Positions 10,701-28,184 are shown, numbered from the stretch's first letter. The stretch: 60,156 nucleotides of DNA from Bacteroidales bacterium (GCA_020438135.1 JAGQVF010000059.1:4216-64371), one strand, 5' to 3'. The notes: generated by a model from the sequence alone, not told the origin. Numbers and translations are program-made.

Positions 10701-10706
10701 ATGGCG

Positions 10707-11483
10707 TTACCTGGGTTTCCAAACTGTTAAAAAACCACTTGAAAAGGTCACCGGCAGTCGGTCGGCGATCCAACAATCAAGTTTTTGAAGAACCAGAGAA
10801 TATCTTGCAAACAAAGAGAATGGAAATACATTTTCAACGAAGTTGGCTGCTCTTACATCCTCAATTTCAAATCCACTGCTTTCTGCCAGGTTTTTCAGGC
10901 TCTTTTTCGAAAAAAACTGCACGTGAGTGAGGTCTTCCGCAGATGACTGAATGGTTTCTCCTTTGTAACCCATCATTTTTTTAAGACCCAGAACCACTTT
11001 AAATGTAAATCCCTTTTTCCGGATTAGGTTTTGCATCCTTTTGGTGATCAGTACCTCCCTGGGACCAAATCCGTTAGGAACTGTTACAATCACAGCCCCA
11101 CCCGGATTCAGATAGTTTTTAAAGAGTTGGGTCAGATCCTCCGGATGGTTTAAATGTTCTATCACTTCACTGCATACCAGTGCATCAAAACGGGTATCAT
11201 TGAAGGTGGCAAGATCCTCGGCTTTCACTGTTTTGAAGGTCAGGTTTGGAAGTTTGTAATTTCTTTTAGCCTCTTCGATTGCTTCAGTGCTGATATCAAT
11301 TCCTGTGACCTGGTAGCCGTACTTTGCCAGTTGAAAACTGATGTTTCCGTTACCACAACCGATGTCGAGCACTTTACCTCCCGGTTTTGTATGTTTTGAA
11401 AGGCTTTCGAGGATAAAGGATAATCTTTTAAGATCCTCAGCCCGGGTGTAGTGGGTGTAATTGATGAATTTTGCTTTTTTCAT
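10707..11483 (-). CDS. Class I SAM-dependent methyltransferase
   Basis: Motif I VLDIGCGNG, post-I GIDIS, and motif II/III FDALVCSEVIEHL. Confidence 0.85.
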   Translation of the reverse strand: MKKAKFINYTHYTRAEDLKRLSFILESLSKHTKPGGKVLDIGCGNGNISFQLAKYGYQVTGIDISTEAIEEAKRNYKLPNLTFKTVKAEDLATFNDTRFDALVCSEVIEHLNHPEDLTQLFKNYLNPGGAVIVTVPNGFGPREVLITKRMQNLIRKKGFTFKVVLGLKKMMGYKGETIQSSAEDLTHVQFFSKKSLKNLAESSGFEIEDVRAANFVENVFPFSLFARYSLVLQKLDCWIADRLPVTFSSGFLTVWKPR

Positions 11484-12390: not shown

Positions 12391-12435
12391 TTGAATGAAA
12401 TATGGCTCTGGTTGGGGAAACTGGTGGTTTGTTGT

Positions 12436-15407: not shown

Positions 15408-16748
15408 TTATTGAAGTTTTGACCTGACTGATAAGGCCAGCCTCCGGTAAAAAATAAAGCCTTCTGTGAATATATGAATGGGATTCAGATTCAATAGTCT
15501 GTTCAGGAATATCCAGCCGTAAATCATTCCTGTGATCGTAAAAACAACAGAAACGGCCGCTACCATCACCAGTGATTGAAAAATGAATACCGCCAAAAGA
15601 TTTCCGATAAGGTTCAAACCCAGCATGATGTATACTTTCAGTGCATTTTTGTCGGGCATTTCAGCTGAATCGAGTGCCACTCCTGTAAATCTGTCGAACG
15701 GAAGGATCAGCCCGTACAAGAGGATCATCATTAAAATGGCTGTCATGAGCGGCATATCGGCCAGGTAATCTTCACCAGCCAGAAATAAAAGAATATGTTG
15801 CGAAAAAATAACTGCTGCTGCAATAACAGGCAGAAACAGCATGCTAACAGCGCCGGTATAGGTCATCAGGGTATTTTTGAAACCTTCGATATTTTGAGTT
15901 AGAAAACTTTTCGACATTTTAGGGCTTGCGGTTGCCAGAAAAGCATTTAAGGGGATCTGGATCAAATCAACTACCTTAAAGGGTATGGAGTAAATAGCAA
16001 CCCCGGTTGCTCCCAAAATTGGCGATAAGCCGATGATCAACGTATCGGAACTGCGCAACAGACTGCTGCCGGTGCTCGTTAGTAAGGTGTATTTTCCGTA
16101 ATTGATGATCTTTTTTATGGTGACCTTGTTGCTCACTTTCAGATACGACCATCCATTCCATTTTAAAATTACGGAAATGATACTTGCCGGGATGTTCGAC
16201 AAAATAAAAAGGATGATCACCCTTTCCACCCCAAATTGCCAACGGAGATTTAACAGAACCAGAATAAAAAACGGAATATTGATTAGAATCCGGGTCCAGA
16301 GTATACGATCGAATCGCTGAATTGCATTTTGATTTGCGGTTGCATTGTTCCAGAAAACAGCAATAACCGACAGCAATGGGTAGTATTTAAAGAACAGGGT
16401 ATAGATTCCCAACTTACTTTCCAACACCAGATAAAGCAGGTAAATGAAGGCCGATGAAATTCCAGCCAGCACCAGGTCGATCGCAAAGCCACTGCCCTGG
16501 AAGGTTTTCATGTGTTGGGTTGCTGTTACAGAACTGTAATGTATGATTGCCCGTTTGGTTAACCCATAACGTACCAGGTCAATAAGGGTTGATGCTGTTA
16601 CGAAGATAACCCACTCGCCAAATGCTTCTTTACCGAGAGAGCGAACCAATAGCAGAAATGTGGCCAGGTTTATTCCCGCTACAAAAACGCTGGTGGCTAG
16701 CGATTGCAGATTTTTTTCCTGTACCAGTTTACGGGTAATCGTTTTCAT
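15408..16748 (-). CDS. wzx: Wzx-type oligosaccharide flippase (MOP superfamily)
   Basis: 446 aa, about 12 TM helices, with a typical N-terminus (...NLATFLLLVRSLGKEAFGEW). The ATG shares one nt with the upstream stop (TAATG). Confidence 0.8.
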   Translation of the reverse strand: MKTITRKLVQEKNLQSLATSVFVAGINLATFLLLVRSLGKEAFGEWVIFVTASTLIDLVRYGLTKRAIIHYSSVTATQHMKTFQGSGFAIDLVLAGISSAFIYLLYLVLESKLGIYTLFFKYYPLLSVIAVFWNNATANQNAIQRFDRILWTRILINIPFFILVLLNLRWQFGVERVIILFILSNIPASIISVILKWNGWSYLKVSNKVTIKKIINYGKYTLLTSTGSSLLRSSDTLIIGLSPILGATGVAIYSIPFKVVDLIQIPLNAFLATASPKMSKSFLTQNIEGFKNTLMTYTGAVSMLFLPVIAAAVIFSQHILLFLAGEDYLADMPLMTAILMMILLYGLILPFDRFTGVALDSAEMPDKNALKVYIMLGLNLIGNLLAVFIFQSLVMVAAVSVVFTITGMIYGWIFLNRLLNLNPIHIFTEGFIFYRRLALSVRSKLQ

Positions 16749-18844
16749 TATCCCTGTTTAAAGTCAAACTTTTCAAAAAATCGTAACAATGCAATTCTTT
16801 TCACCATTTTCCTGAAACCGGAGCGTTTTTTAGGGACAGGACCGATAAAATCACCCAAATTGTCGATATCAACTTTGTTTAAAATAAAACCGATGGGTGT
16901 ATCCTTCCTGATCTTTTGTACCACGTCAAGCATTTTTTTATCTGCTGTGTCCCAACCTCTGTCAGCACGCAATACATAGCCGATGAGATCGAAATCAGTA
17001 TAAAACTGTTCCGGTAAAATATTCCCTATCAATGGTGGAATTTCTTCAAATGTTACATTCCGGTTCTTTTCGTCAGCAATGACATGATTTCCCGACTCCG
17101 GCGAAATATATTTTTCGAAATTCGAAATGAGTGTTGTTTTCCCTTCTCCCGGGTAATGACTGATGATGGCTACCCGCATCGGTTTTTGGAAAGACCCCGT
17201 TCTGTATTTTAATAGATTGTTGAATATTGATTTAATTGTGGCAGATTTGAGATGATCTGGAGAAACAGCACTTTTACCTGAATTTTTTAATGCAGGGAAA
17301 TTCCCCAAACTTAAAAGACCTGTAATTTTTTCAGCTCTGTTTGAATTTTGAAGGGTAGTATCGAAGAAATGGAGCAATAAAAGAATGGCAAAAGTGCCGA
17401 TAAAGCCTGCCAGGGCTGCTGCGATGATAATGAATTTACGTTTGCTTGGTAGCGGGCTTATTGGTAGCACCGGGGGATCAACAATTTTGATATTGGATGA
17501 AAGTTCGATGTCTTGTTGTTTTAATTTTGCCAGGCTGAGGCTGTGAAGAAGTGACAGATATTCCCGTTCCACAACATCAATCTCCCGCTCAATTTTTTTC
17601 AGATTTGCACCCAACGGGGCAAAATGCTGAATCGTTTGTTCAAGTTCAAGTCTTCTTATTTTAAGGGCATTGAGTTTTGCTGCTGCCTCTTCATACGCAA
17701 TTACATTTTGCAACCAGTTGTTAATCACATCGTCCATGCGAAGACCCTCTTTGGTGTTTTCGTAGAAATGAAGTGAATCAATTGTGTTCCGCATTTTTTG
17801 TTTCAGGTCTTCAGCCCTGAATGCAAGTTCGTCAATTGTTTCGGTGGTGGTTACTGTGGAGTCGGTCTGCTGAAAGCGCTGCAAGGCAATTTTTTCATTC
17901 AAAAGATTAAGTTCCGATCTCATCTTAATGATGTTACTTCCCTGCAACTTTAGCTTAACACGGGCTCCCATACTTTCTTCCAGGTTGCTGATAACAGATT
18001 CGGCGGCTGCAAAATCAAGCATTACTGTTTGTCGCTCCAGTTCAAATTTTTCTTTTTCAGAAGCGATGTGTTTGGTTTGCTCATAATAATTGATGATCTT
18101 GTTATCCATGTTGAAATTGAGCAGCTTGCCTTCGGCATTTTGTAACTTATCGTGTGCAATGGCCAACTGTCCTTCGAAATATTGTACCACCTGATCGGTT
18201 TGGTTTTCTTTTAGTTTCGAGTAGCTGTCGATAAATGTGTGCACGAGCAGATTCAACACCTGGTAACATACTGCCGGATCGTCGGAGTCGTAAGTCAGTT
18301 CAATCATGTCGCTGTTGGCAATTCGCTTTGCTTTTACCTGAGAAATGGCCTTGTAACTGTAATGTCTGTGGTTTAGATTGATAAGTTTGTATACATGGTT
18401 CGATTCATCCTTGTTTTTATAGGCGAGCAGATTGTTATAGGTTTTTTCAAGCGAGTTTTTATCTACCAGTTTGAAAATTTCGGGAGGGGTTATTTTTTTT
18501 ACCTCCATCAGGGAGTTTTGAGTTATTACAGGAAGCATTGGTTCATCCTGCATGAGATGCAGGGCATACAGTTTTAGAGCAGTTTCTTCAATGGTGCTGC
18601 GGGCTGTAATCAGGTTGATCAGGTTATCGAATGCATTGTTGATAGCGAAATAATTAAAGGAGGCATTTTGTTGCGATTCGATGGAGTACCCTGAGGCAAT
18701 GCCGGTGTAAACCTTTGTTTTGGATGAATAGGTTTTTGGACTATCCGAGGTAAGCAAAAAAACAAAAAACGCAAGCACTACCGGTATGCCAAAAAGTAGT
18801 GCCAGATTTTTTCGCAATATTTTCAGAAACTCCAATATATTCAT
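16748..18844 (-). CDS. Polysaccharide co-polymerase (Wzz/GumC-like) with a degenerate C-terminal P-loop domain
   Basis: TM1 near the N-terminus, a long coiled-coil periplasmic region, TM2 (IIIAAALAGFIGTFAILLLL), then about 190 aa with a Walker A-like YPGEGKTT. No D(T/S)PP Walker B and no Tyr-rich tail. Confidence 0.8.
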   Translation of the reverse strand: MNILEFLKILRKNLALLFGIPVVLAFFVFLLTSDSPKTYSSKTKVYTGIASGYSIESQQNASFNYFAINNAFDNLINLITARSTIEETALKLYALHLMQDEPMLPVITQNSLMEVKKITPPEIFKLVDKNSLEKTYNNLLAYKNKDESNHVYKLINLNHRHYSYKAISQVKAKRIANSDMIELTYDSDDPAVCYQVLNLLVHTFIDSYSKLKENQTDQVVQYFEGQLAIAHDKLQNAEGKLLNFNMDNKIINYYEQTKHIASEKEKFELERQTVMLDFAAAESVISNLEESMGARVKLKLQGSNIIKMRSELNLLNEKIALQRFQQTDSTVTTTETIDELAFRAEDLKQKMRNTIDSLHFYENTKEGLRMDDVINNWLQNVIAYEEAAAKLNALKIRRLELEQTIQHFAPLGANLKKIEREIDVVEREYLSLLHSLSLAKLKQQDIELSSNIKIVDPPVLPISPLPSKRKFIIIAAALAGFIGTFAILLLLHFFDTTLQNSNRAEKITGLLSLGNFPALKNSGKSAVSPDHLKSATIKSIFNNLLKYRTGSFQKPMRVAIISHYPGEGKTTLISNFEKYISPESGNHVIADEKNRNVTFEEIPPLIGNILPEQFYTDFDLIGYVLRADRGWDTADKKMLDVVQKIRKDTPIGFILNKVDIDNLGDFIGPVPKKRSGFRKMVKRIALLRFFEKFDFKQG

Positions 18845-19599
18845 AACTTCTTGTATTCTAACTGTATGCCTGTAATTAAACTCAGTTTAGCCAGTGATTC
18901 CAGAAATTCCCCATGAGCTATTTCGAACTCAATCTGTGCTTTGTAGAGATTTCTTTCGGTAGATGAATAAGCTGCAAAAGGGATTTTGGAATCGATGAAA
19001 TCTTTTTCAGCTTTTTCTACTTCCAATTCTGACGATTCCATTTGTTTCTCCCTGATCAGCATCACCCTATAATCACTCAGCGATTTAAAATACAACTCGA
19101 TTACATAAGATGAAATTTGTTCTTTTGCCTGTTCCATCTCCTGCACTGCCTTGTCCACGTTGAGCGTAGCAATTTTGATGTTGTTCCTCCGGTTGATAAA
19201 TGCGCTGAGCGGAATTCGTGCAGCGATCCCGGCGCTGTATCGCATCTGTTTGCTGTTGGTAAGCAGGCTGTAGTCGTAATCGTACGAAAACCGGTTCAGC
19301 CATAACTGATCGAATTGGCCATATCCTGCGTCGCCGGTAATGTTAATGTATTCGAACCAATCTTTTTGTTGTTGTTTAAGTTCTTCCTCTTTTAGTTGTG
19401 TTTCGTAGAGATAATAGGAAAACGATCCTGAATGGCCGATGGCTGCATGGATCAGACTATCAAGAGGAGGGAGGTTTAATTCTTCATGAGGATCAGAAAA
19501 AAGTAAAGTATCGGCGGGTATTTGCTGGCCATAACCAAAAAATATTACCATAAAAAAACACACTATGAAAAAGAATGCCGATACCTTACCTGATGTCAT
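18841..19599 (-). CDS. Half-size TolC/OEP-like outer-membrane protein (single repeat)
   Basis: Has a signal/anchor sequence. One unit of the TolC pattern is present: LPPLDSLIHAAIGHS, RYSAGIAARIPL, then long helices (AKEQISSYVIELYFKSL..., NLYKAQIEFEIAHGEFLESLAKLSLITG). It is 252 aa, against about 450 aa for canonical TolC. Confidence 0.5.
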   Translation of the reverse strand: MTSGKVSAFFFIVCFFMVIFFGYGQQIPADTLLFSDPHEELNLPPLDSLIHAAIGHSGSFSYYLYETQLKEEELKQQQKDWFEYINITGDAGYGQFDQLWLNRFSYDYDYSLLTNSKQMRYSAGIAARIPLSAFINRRNNIKIATLNVDKAVQEMEQAKEQISSYVIELYFKSLSDYRVMLIREKQMESSELEVEKAEKDFIDSKIPFAAYSSTERNLYKAQIEFEIAHGEFLESLAKLSLITGIQLEYKKL

Positions 19600-19636
19600 T
19601 TACAAAAGTTTTTTGGGTTTAAGCGATGTTGTGCCA

Positions 19637-20788
19637 TCAAACCGATTCGCTTTGAAAAACAGCCCTGAAGGTTCGCAATATGATCCTGATATCTTTCCAG
19701 AACGTGTATGTGCGGGCATATTCGTTATCGAGTTGCTTGCGTTCTTCCGGAGACATTTCGGTGCTTTTAGCCCGTTTTTCAACCTGCCATAAACCTGTTA
19801 GTCCGGCAGGGGCAATAAATCGTTCGATCCATTCATCGGTCGTTAACAGTTCAGCCTCGTAAAGCGGAATGGGTCGGTTACCAACGATCGACATATCGCC
19901 TTTCAGAACATTGATAAGTTGTGGAAGCTCATCAATACTGCTGTTCCTTATAAATCTGCCAACCTTTGTAATTCTTGGATCATCCTTGATTTTAACAAAA
20001 GAAACCTCTTTCTCCTGCTGCTTCTTTTTGATGAACAACTCTTCGTCAACTTTACCCTCATCGTCAAACAGCTCATTTCTTCCATCGTGGATTGAAAAAT
20101 CAGGATCAAACTTCAATTCGTTTGTATCTGTGTTGACGGCGTATTGATTTAGTTTCTTTAAGTCTTTGATCTTCGCATCAGCATTCATATCCATCGACCT
20201 GAATTTGTAGAAGTCAAAAGTTTTAAAACCTGTTCCGATCCTTTTTGAGGCATAAAACACAGGGCCTCTGGATTCAAGTCTGATGAGAATGGCCACGATA
20301 AGAAAAACCGGCGATAGCAGCAAAAGTGCCGTACCTGCCAAAGCCACATCAAATGCACGTTTTATAAAGGGCATTTGATACTCGAAATATTCGGGTGATG
20401 GAGCCTTTGAAATTTTTGTATTCCTGAATTCTGCGATCAATTGAACACGCGCAGCAAGTTTAACCGGATCGGCCGGAATTGTGTACACATCGTCTACTCC
20501 CTGCGTTAACAATTTTGAATAAACCGAAGTGTTTTGCTTTTCCGTTAGCAGAATGATGATCGTCCGAATGGGGTCGATGCTTTTGTTTAGCCAATCGAGA
20601 TAAGCTGCAATGTTTTCTCCACAGGAAGCCGATTCCAGGACTATTAAGCCGGGTTTATTTTGCCTGAAATAGTCGCTGTTTTCCGTTGCATCCGGAAACA
20701 TGATAAAGTCCAGCGATGGCAATGCTTTAGCAAGCCTGCTATAAAAGTCTTTGTCGTTTCCGATATACGTACCTTTAGTCGGGTTCAT
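19637..20788 (-). CDS. Initiating phosphoglycosyl transferase (Bac_transf family) fused to an N-terminal degenerate receiver (REC-like) domain
   Basis: The C-terminal half carries FDVALAGTALLLLSPVFL (re-entrant helix), KFRSM, DDPRITKVGRFIRNSSIDELPQLINVLKGDMSIVGNRP. The N-terminal ~120 aa have a CheY-like beta-alpha pattern, but with E52 at the acceptor site, T82 kept, and I104 in place of the conserved Lys. Confidence 0.85.
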   Translation of the reverse strand: MNPTKGTYIGNDKDFYSRLAKALPSLDFIMFPDATENSDYFRQNKPGLIVLESASCGENIAAYLDWLNKSIDPIRTIIILLTEKQNTSVYSKLLTQGVDDVYTIPADPVKLAARVQLIAEFRNTKISKAPSPEYFEYQMPFIKRAFDVALAGTALLLLSPVFLIVAILIRLESRGPVFYASKRIGTGFKTFDFYKFRSMDMNADAKIKDLKKLNQYAVNTDTNELKFDPDFSIHDGRNELFDDEGKVDEELFIKKKQQEKEVSFVKIKDDPRITKVGRFIRNSSIDELPQLINVLKGDMSIVGNRPIPLYEAELLTTDEWIERFIAPAGLTGLWQVEKRAKSTEMSPEERKQLDNEYARTYTFWKDIRIILRTFRAVFQSESV

Positions 20789-20799
20789 GATAAATGGTT

Positions 20800-21174
20800 T
20801 TAATTTTTTATTAGCCTGGAAAGCCGGACCTTCAATTCTGCTGGATTAAATGGTTTAACCACATAATCATCTGCTCCCATGTCGAGCATTTTAATGCGTT
20901 CATCAGAGTTGTGGATGCTTGATAGCATGATAATCGGGATTTTGTTGAACATGCCGGATGATTTTACCAGGCTCAGAAATTTGCGTCCATCCAATTCAGG
21001 CATCTGAATGTCGGAAATGATCCCATCCGGAATATTCCCCGACTGAAGCCATGTGAAAGCCGTGTGACCGTTTTCGAAAGTAACTACCTCGTAGTCTTTT
21101 GAGAGGAACATATTCAGCAGGTTCCTGATCTCGTATTTGTCGTCGATTACTATTACCTTTTTTTTCATTTTCAT
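20800..21174 (-). CDS. Stand-alone CheY-like response regulator receiver
   Basis: 124 aa with all canonical residues: VIVIDD, ISDIQMPELDG (acceptor Asp), IIMLSS, DDYVVKPF. Confidence 0.9.
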   Translation of the reverse strand: MKMKKKVIVIDDKYEIRNLLNMFLSKDYEVVTFENGHTAFTWLQSGNIPDGIISDIQMPELDGRKFLSLVKSSGMFNKIPIIMLSSIHNSDERIKMLDMGADDYVVKPFNPAELKVRLSRLIKN

Positions 21175-21189
21175 TTTGATTTTCCCGGG

Positions 21190-23256
21190 TTATTTAACAT
21201 TCGATTGATATAAGTTTGCATTGTTACGATATCCTGAAAGGTTCCGGAACCAATCCGGGTAATTATCGCCTGCACTTTGCGACCAGGCACTGAATTTTAA
21301 ATGGGCATTTGTAATATTTATCTTCTCTGCCGGATAGGTAAAACTTTCCGGAAGGTTTGCTGCCCAGGGATAATTGAAGTATGAGAAATAATACTTTTCA
21401 TTGGCAATATCCGATTGGTCGTGACCCGTTCCAAACAAGCTAAAATCAACCAGATCTGTGGGTGGATATCCCGGCAGGTGAATTTCAACCGACCGGTTGT
21501 TGTTAACGATGATAAATGGATTGTAAGGAGGCAATCCAATTTGATCTTGTGAAAGCGGGTCGTTAAAGGATATTTTCATCCGGATGGTATCCGGTTCAAC
21601 ATAAGGATCTCCATTTCTTGTATTTACATATGTGCCACCCGATGGTACCTGCATCAGTTTGTATGCATCGTCGAAAACGATTACCACAGCCCTGGTTTGT
21701 GCTGCTTCTGTTCCGTTGCTCTGCAGGAAAATTTGGTTGTTAAATAGCGCCTGTCCTTCGACCTGTGAAACAGAAGCAGGATCAATATCCAAAGAAAACC
21801 CAAAGCCGTTTCTGAAACTTCCACCAATAGCCCTGAGAACGAACACGGGCATTAGCTCTACTACCTGATTGCCGGCATTGGTAACAGTTTTAAACTGGTA
21901 ATCGATCACTATATCATTAAAATCATAATCTCCACGAAAAGGCCAGAGATCTTCAAAAGCAAAAGTGCCATAATCGGATGATGAGGGATAATAATTGTTA
22001 TATGCTCTTTCGGGATCGTCAGGGTATTCATCAAATATGTTTGATACGCCATCACCGTCATCATCAAGCGGATCATCAATTATTTGTAAATTATCGGTAT
22101 TGATAGCAGTGATCGGATTTGCCGTAGCATAAAAAACGGCATCGTTAAAATCGTTATCGCATGAGCTGTAATCTCTTCTGATATCCTCAAAACCCAACAA
22201 TATGAGATCACGGTCAGGATCATACAAGAGCACATTGTGTTTCTGAAGATCGGGATCGGTTTCAATATTAAGCGATTGGTGAGAATAGTGCGTGTAATTA
22301 CCTTCATCAACTTGCTGGCCATTCCATCCGTTGCCAACGAGCAGCCATCCTATTGCATATCCGGCCGGGAATGTATCGTTCGGTTCCGTGCTTCCGGGTT
22401 CGAAAAATTTCAATCTTACTTTATTACCCGATTGTAATGCTCCTCCGGAACCGCCATACGAAACATTGGGAAAAATAATGATCCTTTTTTCTATCTCATC
22501 CACTGATTGCGGAGGGTTGTCGAGCGGATAGGTGTAATAACCCAGTGCATTTCGCCAACCTGCACCTTCATGAACAAAAGTTACCCATACTTCGCAGGTC
22601 TCATCAAGAACCAGGTTGGCCTCTAGGCCATTAACAAGGTATTGGGGATGCGATTGGGGTAGAGACGAATTTTCAGGGAGGGTAGCATTAATATCCGCTA
22701 AAAAGTCATTTGTCAATATGTCTCCATTGGGTTCGAGGTAATCAGGATATCCCTGATTGCTGTAACCACCCAGGTATGTAAACGAGGCCGCCTGCTGACT
22801 TTCCAGCCATGAAAAGGATTTGATAGGGCCATCTGTTGGTGTAACCGTGATTTCCGAAGATATGTCCGGAATTTCAACAGGGTATATTTGTCTGAGGCCG
22901 ATATACCTGGGGCACAAAAACAGCGTGTCGAGATAATCAGGAACATTTAACCCGAGTGTTATGCTGCCATTCTGATCAGCGTTTCCTTTGAACAAAAGCT
23001 TACCGGAGTTCTGGATGCTTGAAAAACTTAATCCTTCATTTACAAAAGGATTCTGGCTGTAAACTTCAAAATAGACATCCGCGATTTTTTCGTCCTGCTC
23101 ATTTCTAAAATGTAATGATAGGTACTTATTGGAGGTTGTTTCATAAAGGAAATCGCCCAACACAGTTGGTTCGGGGATATTATTCTCGAATTCCTGTTTC
23201 AGGCAACTGCTCAGCAACAGCAAGCAGGTTGCAAGCGCTGTCATAATTCTAATCAT
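21190..23256 (-). CDS. Lipoprotein with DUF4114-like and LruC domains
   Basis: Lipobox LLLSSC. DUF4114-like block CEVWVTFVHEGAGWRNALGYYTY...CDNDFNDAVFY. Asp-rich Ca-binding-like repeat DDDGDGVSNIFDEYPDDP. LruC-type block FEDLWPFRGDYDFNDIVIDYQF. Domain names are recalled from memory. Confidence 0.7.
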   Translation of the reverse strand: MIRIMTALATCLLLLSSCLKQEFENNIPEPTVLGDFLYETTSNKYLSLHFRNEQDEKIADVYFEVYSQNPFVNEGLSFSSIQNSGKLLFKGNADQNGSITLGLNVPDYLDTLFLCPRYIGLRQIYPVEIPDISSEITVTPTDGPIKSFSWLESQQAASFTYLGGYSNQGYPDYLEPNGDILTNDFLADINATLPENSSLPQSHPQYLVNGLEANLVLDETCEVWVTFVHEGAGWRNALGYYTYPLDNPPQSVDEIEKRIIIFPNVSYGGSGGALQSGNKVRLKFFEPGSTEPNDTFPAGYAIGWLLVGNGWNGQQVDEGNYTHYSHQSLNIETDPDLQKHNVLLYDPDRDLILLGFEDIRRDYSSCDNDFNDAVFYATANPITAINTDNLQIIDDPLDDDGDGVSNIFDEYPDDPERAYNNYYPSSSDYGTFAFEDLWPFRGDYDFNDIVIDYQFKTVTNAGNQVVELMPVFVLRAIGGSFRNGFGFSLDIDPASVSQVEGQALFNNQIFLQSNGTEAAQTRAVVIVFDDAYKLMQVPSGGTYVNTRNGDPYVEPDTIRMKISFNDPLSQDQIGLPPYNPFIIVNNNRSVEIHLPGYPPTDLVDFSLFGTGHDQSDIANEKYYFSYFNYPWAANLPESFTYPAEKINITNAHLKFSAWSQSAGDNYPDWFRNLSGYRNNANLYQSNVK

Positions 23257-23342
23257 TCTTCCTGGGTTTAAAAGAATTACCGTTTTCTACGGATTTTGTA
23301 GCTTTTTTACGTGTGTTACTAATTAATGTTACCTTGCCATAT

Positions 23343-24515
23343 TCACGATTGGTGAGCCGCAGCCGGTTCCTGTTTTGTTGTTCCTTCTTTAAAATTCTTA
23401 AAAGTAAATACCGGAAATGTTATAGTGAAGGTGCTCCCTTTTCCCATTTCACTTTTAAGCTCTATGTTTCCCTGATTGCTTCTAACAAAATCGAGGACCA
23501 GCATAAATCCCAATCCACTTCCTTTTTCCTTATCTGTACCGTAGGTTGTCCATTGGCCATTTCCATATAACAGCATTTTCTGATTTTCATGGCTGATGCC
23601 GATTCCATTGTCTTCAACGGAAATTTTAACATGGTTTTCGACCTCTGTAACAAGAATTGAAATACGCCCCCCACTCGGGGTGAATTTAATAGCGTTTGAC
23701 GTGAGATTTCTGATCACTGTCCCGATCATATTTCTGTCAGCATACAGCTCGATATCGGGGTCTGCTTCAATCAGTAAAGTGATATTCTTTTTGTCGGCTG
23801 CTGGTTTTAGTAAGCCGGCAATACGTTCAATTATTTCCAGAACGTTGAAATGGGTCCGTTCAATTTTTATACCCGAAAGTTTATTTTTTGACCAGAGCAA
23901 AAGGTTTTCGAGCAGGTCGAATGTTTCGTTGGTGGTGTTCAACAGCATTTCGACCAGTTCGTTAAAGTTCGCCCTGTCAATAAAGTTGCCCTGCAGCGCA
24001 GCCAGTACACTTTTAATATTGGCCAGCGGCGACCGAATATCGTGAGCAATGATTGCATACAATTTATCTCTGGATTTAATGGTCTCCTTGAGTTCTTCAG
24101 TTTGAATCGCCAGCAACCGTTTTTGCCGGAGGATTTCAAGCTGCGTGTCAACCCTGGCAAATAACTCTCTCTTTTTAAAGGGTTTCGTTATATAATCGAT
24201 GCCTCCTACTTCAAAACCCCTGACTATGTTATTGGTTTCTGTAAGCGCAGTAATAAAAATAACAGGAATGTCACGCGTGTTTTCATTTGATTTGAGAACC
24301 GAACAAACCTCGAATCCATCCATTCCGGGCATCATGATGTCGAGAAGAATCAGATCGATTTTTACAGATTCTACGGTTTTGAGTGCATCGGGGCCACTGA
24401 ATGCGACTGTCAGATCAAAGTTCTTCTCCCTCAATGCCAGACCCAACACCTTGATATTATCCTTGTTGTCGTCAACAATCAGTATTGAGTATTTCTCTTG
24501 TTCCATATTTTCCAC
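23343..24515 (-). CDS. Receiver-histidine kinase hybrid (REC-HisKA-HATPase_c)
   Basis: REC: ILIVDDNKDN, DLILLDIMMPGMDG, ITKPF. H-box: YAIIAHDIRSPLANI. N/G boxes: RNLTSNAIKFT, DNGIGI, GSGLGF. No TM helix. Confidence 0.9.
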   Translation of the reverse strand: MENMEQEKYSILIVDDNKDNIKVLGLALREKNFDLTVAFSGPDALKTVESVKIDLILLDIMMPGMDGFEVCSVLKSNENTRDIPVIFITALTETNNIVRGFEVGGIDYITKPFKKRELFARVDTQLEILRQKRLLAIQTEELKETIKSRDKLYAIIAHDIRSPLANIKSVLAALQGNFIDRANFNELVEMLLNTTNETFDLLENLLLWSKNKLSGIKIERTHFNVLEIIERIAGLLKPAADKKNITLLIEADPDIELYADRNMIGTVIRNLTSNAIKFTPSGGRISILVTEVENHVKISVEDNGIGISHENQKMLLYGNGQWTTYGTDKEKGSGLGFMLVLDFVRSNQGNIELKSEMGKGSTFTITFPVFTFKNFKEGTTKQEPAAAHQS

Positions 24516-24518
24516 GTT

Positions 24519-27500
24519 TTAAACAGTTACCTTCTTTTTCCCCTTTTTTAAGCCTTCCTTGTAGATGTTTTCAATTTTTTGAATCACCTCCGGGAATTTT
24601 GCAAGGCACTCTTCCAGGTGTTCAAAGTCAAAAACATCAAGGTGGCTTTTCAATTCATCTGCATATTGTATTAAGATTTTTAGCTCTGTTTTTTCGGCTT
24701 CATTTTTAAGTTTTGAAATAAAGGATTCAATTCTGTTGATTACCAACTTATCTTTTATGGCTTCCCATTCAGGCAAAAACAGATTTTTTAGTTTTTCGAT
24801 CAATGGCGGAATATTTTGTCTGATCTTTTCCGGGATTGACTCTGACCGGCCATCGTTTATTTTTTTGTTTTTTATGATCCTGTGAGGTGCATATTTCCTG
24901 AGTGTCGAACACAATTCAACATGATGAACAGGTTTGAAGATAACGTCATTGAACAGTCCTGAATCATTAATTTTTTTATTGTCGTCGTCAAATGCCGATG
25001 CAGTAAATGCGATGATCGGTATTTGATGAAGATGGTCCGTCTGCCGGATTTTGGTTGCCAGTTCGAATCCATCCATGCCCGGCATTCTTAAATCTAGAAA
25101 AACAATATCAGGTTTTGAGTTGGCAATAACTTTCAGGGCTATCTCACCATTTGTGGCCTCTAAAATGGTTAGTCCGGGGGCCTGAACCAATTCCCGGATC
25201 GTATCAATATTGGTTTTAATATCATCAACTACCAGAACGGTAACATTTTCATAAACAATCTTGCTGTAAATGTCTATTACTTCTACCTTTTGTTTAAAGT
25301 CTTCAGGGATATAGGTTGACTTTTTAACATCATTCAAAGTGATCGTAAATTTTGAACCTTTCCCAACTAAACTTTCCACCCCGATGGTTCCATTCATTTG
25401 TTCGAGTAGTTTGTTAACGATGGCCAGTCCCAGGCCGGTTCCTCCGTATTGTTTGTTGGTTTTCCTGTCCTGTTGATGAAAAGCATCGAAAATATGCTCC
25501 AGGTATTCTTCGGAAATGCCTATTCCGCTGTCTTCAAAGATTATATGAAGATCACCCAGGGTACCTTTATCAATAAATTTGGCAGAAACACTCACAAACC
25601 CCTTATCTGTAAATTTAACTGCGTTTCCGCCCAGGTTCACAAGGATTTGGCGCAGATGTGTTTCGTCAAGTATGAGGTATTGGGGCACTGAATCATCAAT
25701 TTGAATATTGAATGCCAGATCTTTTTTAGCGGTTTTGTCTCTGCAGATTTCCCGTGTTTCGTTTAGCAGATACCTGAGGTTTACGGGTTCAAACGAAAGC
25801 TGCATTTTACCTGCCTCAATTTTTGACATGTCGAGGATGTCGTTGATCAGATCGAGCAATAATTTGCCACTCGACATGATGGTATTCACCATTTTTTTAT
25901 GTTGTTCGTTTTCGGTGCGGTGAAACAGCGATTCGCTAAATCCGAGAATGGCATTTAAAGGTGTCCTGATTTCATGGCTCATATTGGCCAGAAATTCACT
26001 CTTAGCTTTATTGGCCTGTTCTGCTTTCTCTTTTTCTTCATTGAGCGATCGAATATATTGCTTTCGCTCACTTACATCCCTCACACTGGCTACAACTTCA
26101 CTGTTGCTCATGGATGCCATCCGGGCTTCATAATCATACAGTTGCTTATTCACCTTAAATTTAAATTCAAACAGGTAAGATCCTTCGCTGAGGCATTTTT
26201 GAATAGAATGAATAAACACATCAGCCGTTTTTTGATCGAAGAGGTTTTCTATTCTTTCAATCTTTCCTTCGAGGTTGAATGGAATTTGTTTACTCTTTTC
26301 GCTGATTGAGTGGTTTAAAACATGGCCGGAAGCATTAAGATATAACAGAAGGTCGGGTATTGATTCGATTATGGCCTTATTTTTTGCCTCACTTTCACGA
26401 AGTGATCGGTGACTGTGTTCTCTTTCAAAAGCATTTGAAACGATTCCACTCACTGTCCGGATCAGTTCAATTTCGGAGGTTGACCATTTCCGGTTTTCAT
26501 TACATTCGTCAAAACCAATAAAACCAAATCTTTTACCAGCACTGATCAGTGGAAACACAATGATCGACTTGATCTCCTGCGGTTCGAGGATGTCGACAAT
26601 GTCAGACGGAAATTCATGAATGTTTTCAGAATAGATGCGGCCATCCCTGTCGAGAAATTCTTTCCAGGATGGTATTAGATCGTATCCAATCTCCTGCAGA
26701 AGATCGATTTGTGGTGAAATCCCTTTATTGCACCATTCATATGTATTGGATGTAAATTTCCCATCCGCTGAATCCTCAAATATGTACGAACGACTAACAT
26801 CTGTGTATTCTCCGATGATTCCAAGGGCCTCATTCATTATTGTTGTAAATTCACCGGGTACATTAAACTTTAATGAAATCTCAGAGATAATGGCCTGGTG
26901 TTTTAACGACTTCTCAAGCGCTACCTGCTGATTGTGCAGTTCCTCCTCTGTAAACTTAATTTCGGAGATATCGATATTGGTACCGACAACCCTGACCGGT
27001 TTATTGTTTTCATCATATTCAGTGACCTTTCCGGTCCCCATAATCCATTTATAGGTGCCGCTTTTAGCTTTGATCCTGTACTTTGAGCGGAATATGTCTG
27101 ATTTGCCTGCCAGGTGATCATTGAGGTTTCGTTTCATTTCATCAAGATCAGAGGGATGAATCAGCTTGTGCCATGCATCAAGGGTTGGTGTTATTTCGTT
27201 TTGGTTGTATCCCAGGATTTTTTTCAGTCCGTCGCTCCGGTAAATAAACCCCGAAGGAATATCAAAATCCCACAATACCGAATTACTGCTCATCAGGGCC
27301 ATTTCAAGTCGTTCTTTCCCATGCCTCAGCTGTTCTTCGTGAATAATACGTTCCGAAATATCAACCATTACACCCCTCACCCCGGCCGGTCTGTTATTTC
27401 TGATGATAACACTTGTGTAAACAAGCACAGGGATCGTATTCCCGTTTTTTTTAACGGCGATGTATTCTCTGGGTGATGAGGTGCCTTTTTCAACCGATTC

Positions 27501-28184
27501 CCTGAATTTGAGGGAAGCAATTTTTCTTTGATCCGGATGGAAAAGATTAAACGCACTGAACCCCTTATCAAGGTCCTTTTGCTCATAACCCAATTTTCGG
27601 AGCGAATATTTATTGGCATAGGTAATTGTTCCATGCAAGTCGGTTTCGCAGATCATTTCAGGCAAAAGTTCAATCAGGTCGCGGTACCGCTTTTCGCTTT
27701 CAATCAGCCTGTTTTTATTGATACATGATAAACCGGCATTTGCCAGCTTGTGATTGAGTATCTTCAGTTTGTGCGCCAAAAATTCCAGTCTGTCAGGATT
27801 GTTGTCAAACAACACCAAAAATCCAAATCCCGGCAAGTCCATAACGGAATATGTTGAACTATTCGCCAGTATACCTTTTTTGGGAAGTTGATCTCTGAAT
27901 TTTTTCAGGTTTGCCGGTGTTGATTCTCCCGGAACCTCCTGCAGCTGATCAAGTTGGCCTGAATCAAGGGGCTTTCCTTTATATAAGCTAAATATGGGAT
28001 GAATAACAATTTTTTTTGTTGATGACAATTCAGCCCTAAAAACTACACCTCCATCAAGTTTTAATTTGTTGATGTAAGATTGCAAACTGTTTTCGACCAT
28101 TTTGGCCAAATCATCATGCACATCAATTTCTACTGCTATTTCAAGAAATGTCTTTAATTCATCCTGTCTGATTTCATGGGGCAT
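24519..28184 (-). CDS. Large cytoplasmic hybrid sensor histidine kinase (multiple PAS, GAF, HisKA, HATPase_c, REC, Hpt-like tail)
   Basis: 1221 aa. PAS-like repeats (residues ~170-430 and ~610-700) and a GAF-like block (...IIVFPLISAGKRFGFIGFDE). H-box FLANMSHEIRTPLNAILGF, HATPase (NLGGNAVKFT, DSGIGI, GGTGLGLAIV), REC (VLVVDD, IVFLDLRMPGMDG, IFKPV). No TM helix seen. Confidence 0.92.
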   Translation of the reverse strand: MPHEIRQDELKTFLEIAVEIDVHDDLAKMVENSLQSYINKLKLDGGVVFRAELSSTKKIVIHPIFSLYKGKPLDSGQLDQLQEVPGESTPANLKKFRDQLPKKGILANSSTYSVMDLPGFGFLVLFDNNPDRLEFLAHKLKILNHKLANAGLSCINKNRLIESEKRYRDLIELLPEMICETDLHGTITYANKYSLRKLGYEQKDLDKGFSAFNLFHPDQRKIASLKFRESVEKGTSSPREYIAVKKNGNTIPVLVYTSVIIRNNRPAGVRGVMVDISERIIHEEQLRHGKERLEMALMSSNSVLWDFDIPSGFIYRSDGLKKILGYNQNEITPTLDAWHKLIHPSDLDEMKRNLNDHLAGKSDIFRSKYRIKAKSGTYKWIMGTGKVTEYDENNKPVRVVGTNIDISEIKFTEEELHNQQVALEKSLKHQAIISEISLKFNVPGEFTTIMNEALGIIGEYTDVSRSYIFEDSADGKFTSNTYEWCNKGISPQIDLLQEIGYDLIPSWKEFLDRDGRIYSENIHEFPSDIVDILEPQEIKSIIVFPLISAGKRFGFIGFDECNENRKWSTSEIELIRTVSGIVSNAFEREHSHRSLRESEAKNKAIIESIPDLLLYLNASGHVLNHSISEKSKQIPFNLEGKIERIENLFDQKTADVFIHSIQKCLSEGSYLFEFKFKVNKQLYDYEARMASMSNSEVVASVRDVSERKQYIRSLNEEKEKAEQANKAKSEFLANMSHEIRTPLNAILGFSESLFHRTENEQHKKMVNTIMSSGKLLLDLINDILDMSKIEAGKMQLSFEPVNLRYLLNETREICRDKTAKKDLAFNIQIDDSVPQYLILDETHLRQILVNLGGNAVKFTDKGFVSVSAKFIDKGTLGDLHIIFEDSGIGISEEYLEHIFDAFHQQDRKTNKQYGGTGLGLAIVNKLLEQMNGTIGVESLVGKGSKFTITLNDVKKSTYIPEDFKQKVEVIDIYSKIVYENVTVLVVDDIKTNIDTIRELVQAPGLTILEATNGEIALKVIANSKPDIVFLDLRMPGMDGFELATKIRQTDHLHQIPIIAFTASAFDDDNKKINDSGLFNDVIFKPVHHVELCSTLRKYAPHRIIKNKKINDGRSESIPEKIRQNIPPLIEKLKNLFLPEWEAIKDKLVINRIESFISKLKNEAEKTELKILIQYADELKSHLDVFDFEHLEECLAKFPEVIQKIENIYKEGLKKGKKKVTV

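What the first reader, a model, noticed from the sequence alone, without database searches (positions are those of the whole stretch)
16748..28184. Candidate undescribed system: a phosphorelay module feeding a receiver-fused initiating transferase plus an atypical export pair
Eight consecutive minus-strand genes run with gaps of 37 nt or less, or with overlapping stop/start codons. The one exception is the 86-nt gap before the LruC gene.

In transcription order the genes are:
- a 1221-aa cytoplasmic PAS/GAF hybrid kinase
- a REC-HK hybrid
- a DUF4114/LruC lipoprotein
- a canonical stand-alone CheY-like receiver
- a phosphoglycosyl transferase carrying a degenerate receiver
- a half-size TolC-like protein
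- a PCP with a decayed kinase domain
- Wzx

There is no DNA-binding response regulator anywhere in the window. The only apparent outputs of the relay are therefore the stand-alone receiver and the receiver-like domain on the first committed enzyme. That suggests post-translational gating of polysaccharide initiation rather than transcriptional control.

The neighbouring locus B uses the textbook WbaP/Wza/Wzc set, so the contrast sits within one genome. I know of no characterised example of this combination.
Basis: partly seen in the sequence, partly recalled or inferred. Interest (0 to 1): 0.78.

Follow-up and report, generated by a model that had tools for sequence, protein, structure and literature searches.

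The report
Receiver-gated polysaccharide cassette with half-TolC exporter
This is a widespread but apparently unstudied Bacteroidota gene cassette for making and exporting a surface polysaccharide, in which a small phosphorylatable signalling protein probably switches on the first enzyme directly, and a half-length TolC-like protein takes the place of the usual outer-membrane exporter.

Summary
The genes, spacing and domain calls are real. The given coordinates cover seven genes. Wzx lies just outside them, and the same-strand cluster runs on to about 2730.

The conserved unit is narrower than proposed. It is a canonical stand-alone receiver gene immediately upstream of a small PglC-type phosphoglycosyl transferase with an N-terminal receiver-fold domain. 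A one-repeat "half TolC", a PslE-like co-polymerase without a tyrosine cluster, Wzx and Wzy follow.

In the loci surveyed, 25 of 25 fused transferases have the receiver gene upstream, against 0 of 50 transferase loci from other phyla. The fused domain is a family-wide pseudo-receiver: Glu replaces the phospho-Asp in 60 of 72 members and the conserved Lys is mostly absent. It keeps the Asp/Arg pair that I recall as part of the PhoB dimer interface.

The two kinases and LruC keep their order in close relatives but are variable elsewhere. The hybrid kinase's HPt-like tail lacks its His, so this is not a canonical phosphorelay.

Direct activation of an initiating transferase by a single-domain regulator was shown in Myxococcus (EpsW/EpsZ, 2025). 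The principle therefore has a precedent; this architecture and a TolC-type exporter in a Wzx/Wzy pathway seem undescribed. I rate it a new variant of a known kind, of moderately high interest.

The parts
24519..28184 (-). Hybrid histidine kinase, 1221 aa, with no Pfam-detected membrane domain. Domains: PAS, PAS_3, GAF, HisKA, HATPase, REC. The C-terminal ~120 aa form an HPt-like tail that lacks the His. Lineage-variable input module.
   Evidence: Pfam. H-box, N-box, G-boxes and the receiver Asp are visible in the translation. The tail has no Hpt match. The His position is Ser here, Q/S/R in close relatives and His only in L029. Orthologues sit in the same position in L081, L084 and L085.
23343..24515 (-). 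REC-HisKA-HATPase kinase, 390 aa. Likely direct kinase for the stand-alone receiver (inferred).
   Evidence: Pfam. The canonical receiver residues (DD, D, T, K) and the H-box AHDIRSPL are visible. It is conserved next to the hybrid kinase in L081, L084, L085 and L019.
21190..23256 (-). LruC-domain lipoprotein (DUF4114 + DUF4842), 688 aa. Recurrent accessory gene of unknown role.
   Evidence: Pfam. NCBIfam LruC_dom scores 255 bits against a cut-off of 36. Lipobox LSSC. Linked to the cassette in L003, L011, L025, L026, L081 and L085, absent in L084, and absent from all 50 control loci.
20800..21174 (-). Stand-alone OmpR/PhoB-type receiver (CheY-like), 124 aa, predicted to be phosphorylatable.
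   Evidence: Response_reg E=2e-24. D11, D12, D55, S85 and K107 are present and are conserved in 24-31 of 31 aligned sequences (the window plus 30 PGT-adjacent orthologues). R93, D103, E113 and R117, which I recall as PhoB interface positions, are the commonest residue at their positions (16-22 of 31). Best NCBIfam matches are RpaB, PhoB and OmpR receivers.
20411..20788 (-). Pseudo-receiver domain of the PGT (residues 1-126). Glu52 sits at the phospho-acceptor position.
   Evidence: AF2 predicts a (beta-alpha)5 fold with pLDDT of 83-95. Foldseek matches BfmR, PhoP, PmrA and PhoB receivers with target TM of about 0.8, and also the CpaE N-terminal domain (4n0p). Pfam Response_reg scores only 12.8 bits against a cut-off of 30.2. 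Across 72 family members: E 60 / D 12 at the phospho-site, K at beta5 in 13 of 72, G10 in 71 of 72, D100 in 66 of 72 and R114 in 72 of 72.
19637..20362 (-). Small monotopic phosphoglycosyl transferase (PglC type): re-entrant helix plus catalytic domain, with a ~60-aa insert.
   Evidence: Bac_transf E=1.8e-58. Foldseek matches PglC 8e37 at E=4e-13 with target TM 0.83. The KRxFD motif, S159-P160 and the D286-E287 dyad are invariant or nearly so. The insert at about 205-265 has low confidence.
18841..19599 (-). Half-size TolC-like outer-membrane protein, 252 aa: signal peptide plus one OEP repeat. Occupies the position of Wza.
   Evidence: OEP E=1.7e-17. AF2 pLDDT is 85.7, showing helices, one beta-hairpin (86-103 / 111-128), a 72-residue helix and a further helix. 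The top 39 Foldseek hits are all TolC/CusC/OprM-type channels, aligned over about 205 columns, roughly half of each target. The family has 979 members, and the 120 listed are 245-300 aa.
16748..18844 (-). PslE-like polysaccharide co-polymerase, 698 aa, with a short C-terminal P-loop domain. It keeps the Walker A Lys but has no Walker A' and no Tyr cluster.
   Evidence: GNVR scores 26.3 bits, below the cut-off. A weak Wzz match covers the N-terminus. Best PDB matches are PslE at E=1.8e-5 and Wzc at 1.5e-3. The orthologue alignment shows the motifs. Contrast with locus B Wzc.
15408..16748 (-). Wzx-type flippase, 446 aa.
   Evidence: Weak matches to MatE and WZX_like. Orthologues in L081, L083 and L085 hit Polysacc_synt.
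13928..15397 (-). Wzy-type polymerase, 489 aa.
   Evidence: Wzy_C E=4.4e-11. Conserved downstream of Wzx or the PCP in many loci.
2730..13764 (-). Rest of locus A: UDP-glucose dehydrogenase, GT2 genes, a methyltransferase, an AsnB-like gene, a DUF218 gene, GT4/GT1 genes and a hexapeptide acyltransferase.
   Evidence: Pfam. The same set and order (UGDH, GT2, methyltransferase, GT2, AsnB-like) appears in L081 and L083.

Best explanation
Locus A is a Bacteroidota-wide Wzx/Wzy-dependent polysaccharide cassette with two unusual modules.

**1. Initiation switch.**
- The first enzyme is a small PglC-type phosphoglycosyl transferase fused to an N-terminal pseudo-receiver. This domain has Glu at the phospho-site and no conserved Lys, so it is probably not phosphorylated.
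- The gene immediately upstream encodes a canonical single-domain receiver of the OmpR/PhoB type.
- Inference: the phosphorylated receiver pairs with the pseudo-receiver through the alpha4-beta5-alpha5 face. Both proteins keep the Asp/Arg pair that I recall as the PhoB D101-R115 interface salt bridge. The pairing changes transferase activity after translation, most likely turning it on, as EpsW~P does for EpsZ.
- In this genome the phosphorylation state is probably set by the adjacent PAS/GAF hybrid kinase and the REC-HK. That would be a kinase-to-kinase cascade, not a His-Asp-His-Asp relay, because the HPt-like tail lacks its His.

**2. Export.**
- Repeat units are flipped by Wzx and polymerised by Wzy, presumably inside a PslE-like co-polymerase ring (ring architecture assumed from PslE and Wzc, not tested here). 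The co-polymerase's P-loop domain cannot autophosphorylate on a Tyr tail.
- The polymer crosses the outer membrane through an oligomer of a one-repeat TolC-like protein, which stands where Wza stands in locus B.
- LruC is a recurrent lipoprotein accessory of unknown role.

**Shown:** the domains, the folds, the synteny, the residue conservation, and the absence of an OPX gene and of a DNA-binding regulator.

**Inferred:** the receiver/pseudo-receiver contact, the direction of regulation, the kinase-receiver pairing, and the role and stoichiometry of the TolC-like channel.
For: **Gene content and order:**

**Receiver fold of the N-domain and PglC-like catalytic domain:**

**Family-wide pseudo-receiver signature:**
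- E 60 / D 12 at the phospho-site; K in 13 of 72; D100 in 66 of 72; R114 in 72 of 72.
Among the 120 listed, most carry both PF00072 and PF02397.

**Adjacent receiver:**
- Canonical residues are conserved, with PhoB-type interface residues present.
- A CheY-like gene lies directly upstream in 25 of 25 fused-PGT loci and in 2 of 5 Bacteroidota loci with a short PGT. It is absent from all 50 PGT loci of other phyla. Pooled, that is 25 of 25 against 2 of 55, Fisher p about 1e-18. The loci are not phylogenetically independent.

**Export pair:**
- The order PGT, half-OEP, PCP is found in 21 of 34 loci, including divergent 222-226 aa versions in Pedobacter and Dyadobacter (hhalign 97%).
- Half-TolC structure.
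- PslE is the best solved relative of the PCP. PslE is known to be a functional kinase-dead octameric co-polymerase (PMC13434223).
- No Poly_export gene occurs in locus A, whereas locus B has WbaP-Wza-Wzc in the same order.

**Kinases:** the kinase genes keep their order in three relatives whose PGT is 50-63% identical. A hybrid kinase abuts the receiver gene in the distant loci L001 and L029.

**Experimental precedent:** EpsW~P binds and activates the PGT EpsZ post-translationally (PMC12802240).
Against: - No interaction, phosphotransfer, transcript or phenotype data exist for any member that I could find.
- I could not run a multimer prediction.
- In L025 and L026 the receiver gene precedes a short PGT without a pseudo-receiver, so the contact, if any, need not go through that domain.
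- In several Chitinophagaceae-type loci the upstream receiver itself has lost its acidic residues.
- According to PMC12802240, small monoPGTs work as monomers, so the dimer-promoting logic of EpsW/EpsZ may not transfer.
- Of the interface positions recalled from PhoB, only one pair (D100/R114) is kept in the pseudo-receiver. The positions equivalent to the R91-E111 pair are Tyr and Lys.
- Kinases are linked in only about a third of loci, and a DNA-binding partner elsewhere in the genome cannot be excluded from a 60-kb window.
- A TolC-like protein next to a PCP could serve another export task. No oligomer model was tested.
Confidence: 0.55

Rival explanations
1. The kinases control transcription through a DNA-binding response regulator encoded outside the window. 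The 124-aa receiver is a phosphate sink or connector. The pseudo-receiver on the PGT is only a structural or oligomerisation domain with no signalling role.
For: Kinases are linked in only 10 of 30 Bacteroidota loci. The window is 60 kb of a larger genome. The pseudo-receiver cannot be phosphorylated in most members. A 388-aa REC protein with an unknown output sits among the kinases in L081.
Against: The near-perfect adjacency of the receiver gene with the fused PGT (25 of 25, against 0 of 50 PGT loci from other phyla) is hard to explain if the two do not work together. The pseudo-receiver keeps D100 and R114, which I recall as dimer-interface positions. No DNA-binding regulator lies within 10 kb upstream in L081, L084 or L085.
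Confidence: 0.2
2. The receiver acts negatively or on another target. One version: the Glu-bearing pseudo-receiver is a constitutively "on" dimerisation module that keeps the PGT active, and the phosphorylated receiver competes for that face and shuts initiation off. Another version: the receiver binds the P-loop domain of the PCP rather than the PGT.
For: D-to-E changes at the phospho-site often mimic activation in response regulators (my own knowledge). The same interface could support homo- or heterodimers. In L025 and L026 the receiver persists without a pseudo-receiver, so another target is possible. The PCP keeps a conserved P-loop domain and a basic tail of unknown function.
Against: The only studied analogue is an activator (PMC12802240). 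The receiver gene is adjacent to the PGT, not the PCP, and persists in loci where no PCP was found nearby (L015, L018, L021, L022, L030).
Confidence: 0.15
3. The half-TolC is not the polysaccharide channel. It is part of an unrelated efflux or secretion function, or a periplasmic/outer-membrane accessory. The polymer leaves through a shared OPX such as the locus B Wza, or stays cell-associated.
For: No functional data. TolC-family proteins normally serve tripartite pumps. A Wza is encoded 29 kb away in the same window.
Against: The gene sits between the PGT and the PCP in 21 of 34 loci across several Bacteroidota classes. That is the same slot as Wza in WbaP-Wza-Wzc. In the window it overlaps the PCP gene by 4 nt. 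No pump or adaptor genes are in the cassette. No Poly_export gene was called within 10 kb in L081, L084 or L085.
Confidence: 0.15

Closest known systems
Myxococcus xanthus EpsW / EpsZ (single-domain response regulator activating the initiating PGT; PMC12802240)
   Same: A phosphorylatable single-domain receiver is associated with a Wzx/Wzy pathway and acts on the first committed enzyme after translation. There is no DNA-binding output.
   Different: EpsZ is a large WbaP-type monoPGT without a receiver domain. EpsW is fed by the Dif chemosensory kinase and is proposed to stabilise an EpsZ dimer. Here the PGT is a small PglC-type enzyme carrying its own pseudo-receiver, the receiver gene is immediately adjacent, and the inputs are PAS/GAF kinases. 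No experiment exists for this system.
Small monotopic PGTs (PglC, PDB 8e37) and their catalogued receiver-domain fusions (O'Toole et al. 2021, as cited in PMC12802240)
   Same: Re-entrant helix with a Ser-Pro break, an Asp-Glu dyad and the PglC fold (target TM 0.83).
   Different: An N-terminal pseudo-receiver and a ~60-aa insert in the catalytic domain. The fusions were listed bioinformatically. I could not retrieve that paper to see whether the paired receiver gene or the Glu substitution was noted.
Pseudomonas aeruginosa PslE / PslD (PMC13434223)
   Same: A PCP-2-type co-polymerase whose cytoplasmic kinase-like domain lacks kinase function and a Tyr cluster yet is functional. It is the best solved sequence relative of PCP698 (E=1.8e-5).
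   Different: PslE lacks the Walker A Lys, which PCP698 keeps. PslE docks to an OPX protein (PslD). Here the partner in that gene position is a TolC-type protein.
TolC / outer membrane factor family (TolC 1ek9, CusC 3pik, OprM)
   Same: OEP Pfam domain. The predicted helix, beta-hairpin, long-helix fold matches one structural repeat.
   Different: One repeat instead of two, at about 250 aa against about 430-490 aa. A trimer would give only 6 strands, so a hexamer or another stoichiometry is needed. The gene context is a Wzx/Wzy locus next to a PCP, not an efflux pump or type I secretion system.
Wza / Wzc / WbaP group 1 capsule-type set (present as locus B of this window)
   Same: The same gene grammar: PGT, outer-membrane exporter, co-polymerase, then flippase, polymerase and glycosyltransferases.
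   Different: Locus A has no Poly_export/OPX protein, no BY-kinase Tyr cluster and no CoA_binding_3 domain on the PGT. It adds a receiver/pseudo-receiver pair.
OmpR/PhoB receiver dimers, and the CpaE N-terminal domain (PDB 4n0p) as a possible pseudo-receiver comparison
   Same: Both the 124-aa receiver and the PGT N-domain keep the positions that I recall as the PhoB D101 and R115 interface residues. Foldseek's top receiver hits are OmpR/PhoB members, and the CpaE N-domain also appears.
   Different: Neither protein has a DNA-binding domain. One partner is permanently unphosphorylatable and tethered to a membrane enzyme.

Membership tests
Wzx/Wzy-dependent polysaccharide pathway | Initiating polyprenyl-phosphate phosphoglycosyl transferase | tested here: met
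   Bac_transf E=1.8e-58. PglC fold. Catalytic DE dyad invariant.
Wzx/Wzy-dependent polysaccharide pathway | Wzx flippase and Wzy polymerase | tested here: met
   Wzy_C E=4.4e-11. The Wzx match is weak in the window (MatE, WZX_like), but orthologues hit Polysacc_synt.
Wzx/Wzy-dependent polysaccharide pathway | Polysaccharide co-polymerase | tested here: met
   Similarity to PslE and Wzc. GNVR and Wzz matches fall just below the cut-offs. BLASTP alignment to locus B Wzc, E=1e-7.
Wzx/Wzy-dependent polysaccharide pathway | OPX (Poly_export) outer-membrane exporter in the locus | tested here: not met
   No Poly_export hit in any locus A ORF of 150 aa or more. A one-repeat OEP protein occupies that position.
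Response regulator receiver domain (PGT N-domain) | (beta-alpha)5 CheY-like fold | tested here: met
   AF2 pLDDT 83-95. Foldseek target TM about 0.8 and rmsd 2.2-2.7 A to many receivers.
Response regulator receiver domain (PGT N-domain) | Phospho-acceptor Asp, acidic pair, conserved Thr/Ser and Lys; Pfam gathering score | tested here: not met
   Glu52 at the phospho-site (E 60 / D 12 of 72). Gly10 replaces the first acidic residue. Lys in 13 of 72. Pfam 12.8 bits against 30.2.
[quoted passage not shown] | Canonical, phosphorylatable single-domain receiver genetically tied to the PGT | tested here: met
   Adjacency in 25 of 25 fused-PGT loci.
[quoted passage not shown] | Target is a large WbaP-type monoPGT lacking the dimerisation beta-hairpin | tested here: not met
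   The PGT is the small PglC type with a pseudo-receiver. It has no CoA_binding_3 domain.
[quoted passage not shown] | Direct phosphorylation-dependent binding and stimulation of PGT activity | not testable with these tools
   Needs multimer modelling, binding assays and enzyme assays.
TolC / outer membrane factor | OEP domain and TolC-like helix/beta-hairpin fold | tested here: met
   PF02321 scores 64.3 bits against a cut-off of 22. The top 39 Foldseek hits are all outer membrane factors.
TolC / outer membrane factor | Two tandem structural repeats per protomer (4 strands), forming a trimeric 12-strand barrel | tested here: not met
   One repeat and two strands. About half of each target is covered. 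The 120 family members listed are 245-300 aa. The oligomeric state could not be tested.
BY-kinase PCP-2a (Wzc) | Walker A, A' and B motifs and a C-terminal Tyr cluster | tested here: not met
   Walker A GEGKT is kept. Walker A' is missing. A Walker-B-like Glu is present. There is no Tyr cluster, and a basic tail takes its place. Locus B Wzc has all four features.
His-Asp-His-Asp phosphorelay | Hybrid kinase with receiver | tested here: met
   HisKA, HATPase and REC with canonical residues.
His-Asp-His-Asp phosphorelay | HPt domain with phosphorylatable His | tested here: not met
   No Hpt Pfam match. The HPt-like tail has Ser at the His position, and Q/S/R in close relatives. No separate HPt gene was found among the ORFs scanned.

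The most novel reading that the evidence does not exclude
Bacteroidota use a so far unrecognised version of the Wzx/Wzy pathway with two new parts.

1. A receiver/pseudo-receiver heterodimer switch built into a small monotopic PGT. The Glu-bearing pseudo-receiver offers a permanently "active-like" face that only the phosphorylated partner can bind.
2. A fourth kind of outer-membrane polysaccharide translocon: one-repeat TolC-like protomers whose free stoichiometry (for example 8 x 2 strands) could match an octameric co-polymerase ring (stoichiometry assumed from PslE and Wzc, not tested here) and give a wider channel than trimeric TolC.
Probability: 0.35. Interest if true: 0.82.

Novelty: new variant of a known kind. 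Interest (0 to 1): 0.62.

Why it matters
**Regulation.** Initiating transferases compete for scarce undecaprenyl phosphate. How cells gate them is largely unknown beyond one 2025 Myxococcus study. This cassette offers a compact, genetically linked receiver/pseudo-receiver/enzyme trio in which direct signal-to-enzyme control could be tested.

**Reach.** The cassette occurs in many Bacteroidota. These include gut genera (Bacteroides, Prevotella and, for the half-TolC family, Parabacteroides and Muribaculaceae) and tractable Flavobacterium and Pedobacter strains.

**Export.** If the half-TolC is the exporter, the list of outer-membrane polysaccharide translocons grows. It currently holds Wza-type, composite OPX/beta-barrel and synthase-dependent porins. 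The finding would also raise a clean structural question about how a one-repeat TolC assembles and docks to a co-polymerase.

**Annotation.** These genes are currently labelled only "sugar transferase", "response regulator" and "TolC family protein".

Tried and rejected
- **phmmer with the 140-aa N-domain alone** against 1.8 billion representatives gave only 6 hits. The domain diverges too fast for single-sequence searches, so family size could not be estimated this way.
- **NCBIfam** gave no match above a curated cut-off except LruC_dom.
- **Pfam on the kinase's N-terminal 167 aa and C-terminal 121 aa, and on the LruC N-terminus,** gave nothing useful.
- **The sigma-70 promoter scan** found fewer sites than the shuffled controls. 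Bacteroidota promoters are not covered by that tool. No terminator-like site lies in an intergenic gap on the coding strand. Together this is weak, only negative, support for co-transcription.
- **O'Toole 2021 (PMC7848588)** is not held. I rely on how PMC12802240 cites it.
- **Literature searches** for TolC-type proteins in Wzx/Wzy or Bacteroidota polysaccharide loci found nothing relevant. This is absence of evidence within the searchable library only.
- **A fused-chain trick for co-folding the receiver with the PGT** is not possible.
- **Rejected: the PGT N-domain is a decayed remnant.** The Glu, Gly10, D100 and R114 are conserved across the family.
- **Rejected: the locus is a canonical phosphorelay**.

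Full report
**1. Observation**

The stated interval 16748-28184 excludes Wzx (15408-16748).

The co-directional run does not stop there. It continues with Wzy (13928-15397), a UDP-glucose dehydrogenase, GT2 genes, a methyltransferase, an AsnB-like gene, a DUF218 gene, GT4/GT1 genes, a hexapeptide acyltransferase and a last GT2 ending at 2730.

Pfam confirms each domain call. NCBIfam adds only the LruC_dom model above a curated cut-off.

None of the ORFs of 150 aa or more in the window has a DNA-binding response-regulator output. The only winged helix is HTH_47, inside a DUF4910 aminopeptidase-like protein of locus B.

Locus B (50678 down to about 29991) has these genes:
- a WbaP with CoA_binding_3;
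- a 252-aa lipoprotein Wza with Poly_export, SLBB and a C-terminal hydrophobic helix;
- a Wzc with Walker A, A' and B motifs and the tail YGYAYQSAYY.

**2. The transferase**

The 120 listed are mostly 380-400 aa, and most carry both PF00072 and PF02397.

The window's N-domain scores only 12.8 bits against Response_reg. AlphaFold2 with a 72-sequence alignment nevertheless predicts a clean (beta-alpha)5 domain, with pLDDT of 83-95. A long re-entrant helix and a PglC-like catalytic domain follow.

Foldseek against the PDB gives two sets of matches:
- PglC (8e37) at E=4e-13, target TM 0.83, for the C-terminal half;
- dozens of OmpR/PhoB-type receivers (BfmR, PhoP, PmrA, PhoB, MtrA, CpxR) at target TM of about 0.8 and rmsd of 2.2-2.7 A for the N-terminal half. 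The CpaE N-terminal domain also appears.

Residue counts over 72 family members show a stable, non-canonical receiver:

| Position | Count in 72 members |
|---|---|
| Phospho-acceptor | Glu 60, Asp 12 |
| First acidic residue (Gly10) | Gly 71 |
| beta4 Thr/Ser | 24 |
| beta5 Lys | 13 |
| Asp100 | 66 |
| Arg114 | 72 |
| Tyr102 | 60 |
| Pro105 | 63 |

Counting from the conserved Pro, Asp100 and Arg114 fall at the positions of PhoB D101 and R115. I recall that pair as a salt bridge of the alpha4-beta5-alpha5 dimer (my own knowledge; the numbering was checked against a PhoB sequence that I supplied from memory).

The catalytic hallmarks are invariant or nearly so: KRxFD, the Ser-Pro helix break and the Asp-Glu dyad. 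The enzyme therefore looks active.

**3. The partner receiver**

The 124-aa protein has all five canonical receiver residues. I aligned the window protein with 30 orthologues taken from directly upstream of the PGT, 31 sequences in all. The canonical residues are kept in 24-31 of the 31. The residues I recall as PhoB-type interface positions (R93, D103, E113, R117) are the commonest residue at their positions, in 16-22 of 31.

It is thus an OmpR/PhoB-type receiver without an output domain. Its best NCBIfam matches, RpaB, PhoB and OmpR, agree.

**4. Conservation of the neighbourhood**

A scan of one genome per species returned 80 PGT loci, and the top 30 are Bacteroidota. I added four close relatives fetched by exact protein look-up. 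I then classified ORFs with HMMs and phmmer.

- **Receiver gene.** All 25 loci of the 30 whose PGT carries the N-domain have a CheY-like gene immediately upstream. One is split by an IS66-like insertion (L002) and one has a frameshifted PGT (L029).
- **Short PGTs.** Of five Bacteroidota loci with a short PGT, three lack the receiver gene. Two (L025 Ekhidna, L026) have it.
- **Controls.** None of 50 PGT loci from other phyla has it. Pooled, that is 25 of 25 against 2 of 55, Fisher p about 1e-18. The loci are related to one another, so this is not a true probability.
- **Export pair.** A half-size OEP gene and then a PCP gene follow the PGT in 21 of 34 loci. This count includes Pedobacter and Dyadobacter, whose 222-226 aa versions were recognised only by profile-profile comparison (hhalign 97%, E=1e-10).
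- **Kinases.** Kinase cores lie within 10 kb of the PGT in 10 of 30 Bacteroidota loci, against 3 of 50 controls. Two of the ten, L019 and L024, have an unfused PGT and no CheY-like gene. In L001 and L029 a hybrid kinase abuts the receiver gene.
- **LruC.** It occurs in 4 of 30 loci and in none of the 50 controls. Its position varies.
- **Close relatives.** The closest relatives have PGTs 50-63% identical (L081/L082, L084, L085). They keep the order hybrid kinase, REC-HK, (LruC), CheY, PGT, OEP, PCP, Wzx, Wzy, UGDH, GT2. They have extra FIST and multi-PAS kinase genes upstream that the window lacks. L084 lacks LruC.

**5. The export pair**

AF2 (51 sequences, pLDDT 85.7) predicts a signal peptide, two helices, one long beta-hairpin (86-103 / 111-128), a 72-residue helix and a further helix. 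That is one TolC structural repeat.

The top 39 Foldseek hits are all outer membrane factors (TolC, CusC, OprM, CmeC, MtrE, VceC). They align over about 205 columns, roughly half of each target. A profile search found 979 such proteins. The 120 listed are 245-300 aa, and some come from Parabacteroides, Muribaculaceae and Bacteroides.

PCP698's best solved relatives are PslE (E=1.8e-5) and Wzc. An alignment with 14 orthologues shows:
- a conserved Walker A, GEGK[ST];
- a Walker-B-like acidic residue;
- an RAxRxW..AD motif;
- a basic tail, LPKKRSxFRK, with no Tyr cluster. The window's version also lacks the Walker A' region.

PslE is a functional octameric co-polymerase with a kinase-like domain that lacks activity (PMC13434223).

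Locus A has no Poly_export gene. The order PGT, OEP, PCP mirrors WbaP, Wza, Wzc in locus B. I infer from this that the half-TolC replaces the OPX.

**6. The kinases**

Both have intact H, N and G boxes and canonical receiver residues. The hybrid kinase's last ~120 residues align as an HPt-like helical domain. The His position is Ser here, Q/S/R in the three close relatives, and His only in the distant L029. Pfam finds no Hpt domain.

A canonical His-Asp-His-Asp relay is therefore not supported. One plausible route is that HK1221 acts on the receiver of REC-HK390, which in turn phosphorylates the 124-aa receiver. This is untested.

**7. Known work**

Schwabe et al. (mBio 2025, PMC12802240) showed three things about the M. 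xanthus single-domain regulator EpsW. Its phosphorylated form acts post-translationally, it is proximity-labelled with the PGT EpsZ, and it stimulates EpsZ activity in Salmonella. They propose that it stabilises an EpsZ dimer.

They note that small monoPGTs fused to receiver domains were catalogued (O'Toole 2021). They also note that, because small PGTs are monomers, the mechanism may differ. I could not retrieve O'Toole 2021.

The three papers in the search results that deal with OPX structural classes or OPX/beta-barrel translocons had no occurrences of "TolC". My other searches for a TolC-type exporter in such loci found nothing.

**8. Verdict**

The core is receiver + pseudo-receiver-PGT + half-TolC + PslE-like PCP + Wzx/Wzy. 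The kinases and LruC are lineage-variable additions.
- "Phosphorelay" should be dropped.
- The regulatory principle now has an experimental precedent.
- What remains new is the receiver/pseudo-receiver architecture on a small PGT, its strict gene pairing, and a one-repeat TolC in the exporter slot.
- I rate it a new variant of a known kind, interest 0.62, with 0.55 confidence in the full mechanistic reading. Confidence is higher that this is a conserved polysaccharide cassette with these parts.

Noticed in passing
window 24519-24890 (C-terminal ~120 aa of the 1221-aa kinase); L029, L081, L084, L085: The tail aligns as an HPt-like helical domain. The phospho-His position is Ser in the window and Q/S/R in close relatives. 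Only the distant L029 keeps His. This looks like a pseudo-HPt on a hybrid kinase.
   Followed up: partly
window 19990-20175 (PGT residues ~205-265); alignment A1 columns ~240-290: Many family members carry a four-Cys motif (CPxC...CSP...C) in an insert within the Bac_transf domain, which looks like a zinc ribbon. The window's clade has the insert but not the cysteines, and it is modelled with low confidence.
   Followed up: no
L025 9460-12720 (Ekhidna sp.) and L026 2350-5691: A canonical CheY-like gene sits directly upstream of a short PGT that has no pseudo-receiver. An LruC gene follows immediately. This may be an ancestral or derived form of the switch.
   Followed up: partly
L002 7049-9700: The CheY-like gene is split by a ~2.3-kb insertion. 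The insertion carries a 113-aa ORF and a 490-aa ORF that look like IS66-family TnpB and transposase genes, judged by eye only.
   Followed up: partly
L029 9704-10728: The PGT is split into two ORFs (150 + 186 aa), probably by a frameshift or an assembly error, in an otherwise intact cassette.
   Followed up: no
L081 214-1365; L084 3522-4643; L085 1897-3015: A FIST/FIST_C sensor-domain gene precedes the hybrid kinase in all three close relatives, with a 1400-1500 aa multi-PAS kinase as well in two of them. The window has a 354-nt gap and an MFS transporter gene (28539-29978) there instead.
   Followed up: no
window 16748-17200 (PCP C-terminus) and orthologues: A conserved basic tail (LPKKRSxFRKxxKR) and an RAxRxW..AD motif sit where Wzc has its Tyr cluster. 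The PslE C-terminal tail contacts the polymerase, so this tail may do likewise.
   Followed up: no
window 37476-38786: Locus B encodes a DUF4910/DUF2172 aminopeptidase-like protein with a C-terminal HTH_47 winged helix. It sits among dTDP-sugar modification genes (a C-methyltransferase, an epimerase and others). This is the only helix-turn-helix found in the window.
   Followed up: no
window 42450-45024: Locus B carries an MBOAT and AlgX-like SGNH pair, which suggests O-acetylation of that polysaccharide.
   Followed up: no
window 58006-59121: An S1/P1-nuclease-like protein has a type IX secretion C-terminal sorting domain. This fits a Bacteroidota origin for the window.
   Followed up: no
window 29991-32106: The listed ORFs 29991-31004 (GT2) and 30886-32106 (Wzy-like) overlap by 119 nt. 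The upstream start of the GT2 is probably mis-assigned by the mechanical ORF call.
   Followed up: no
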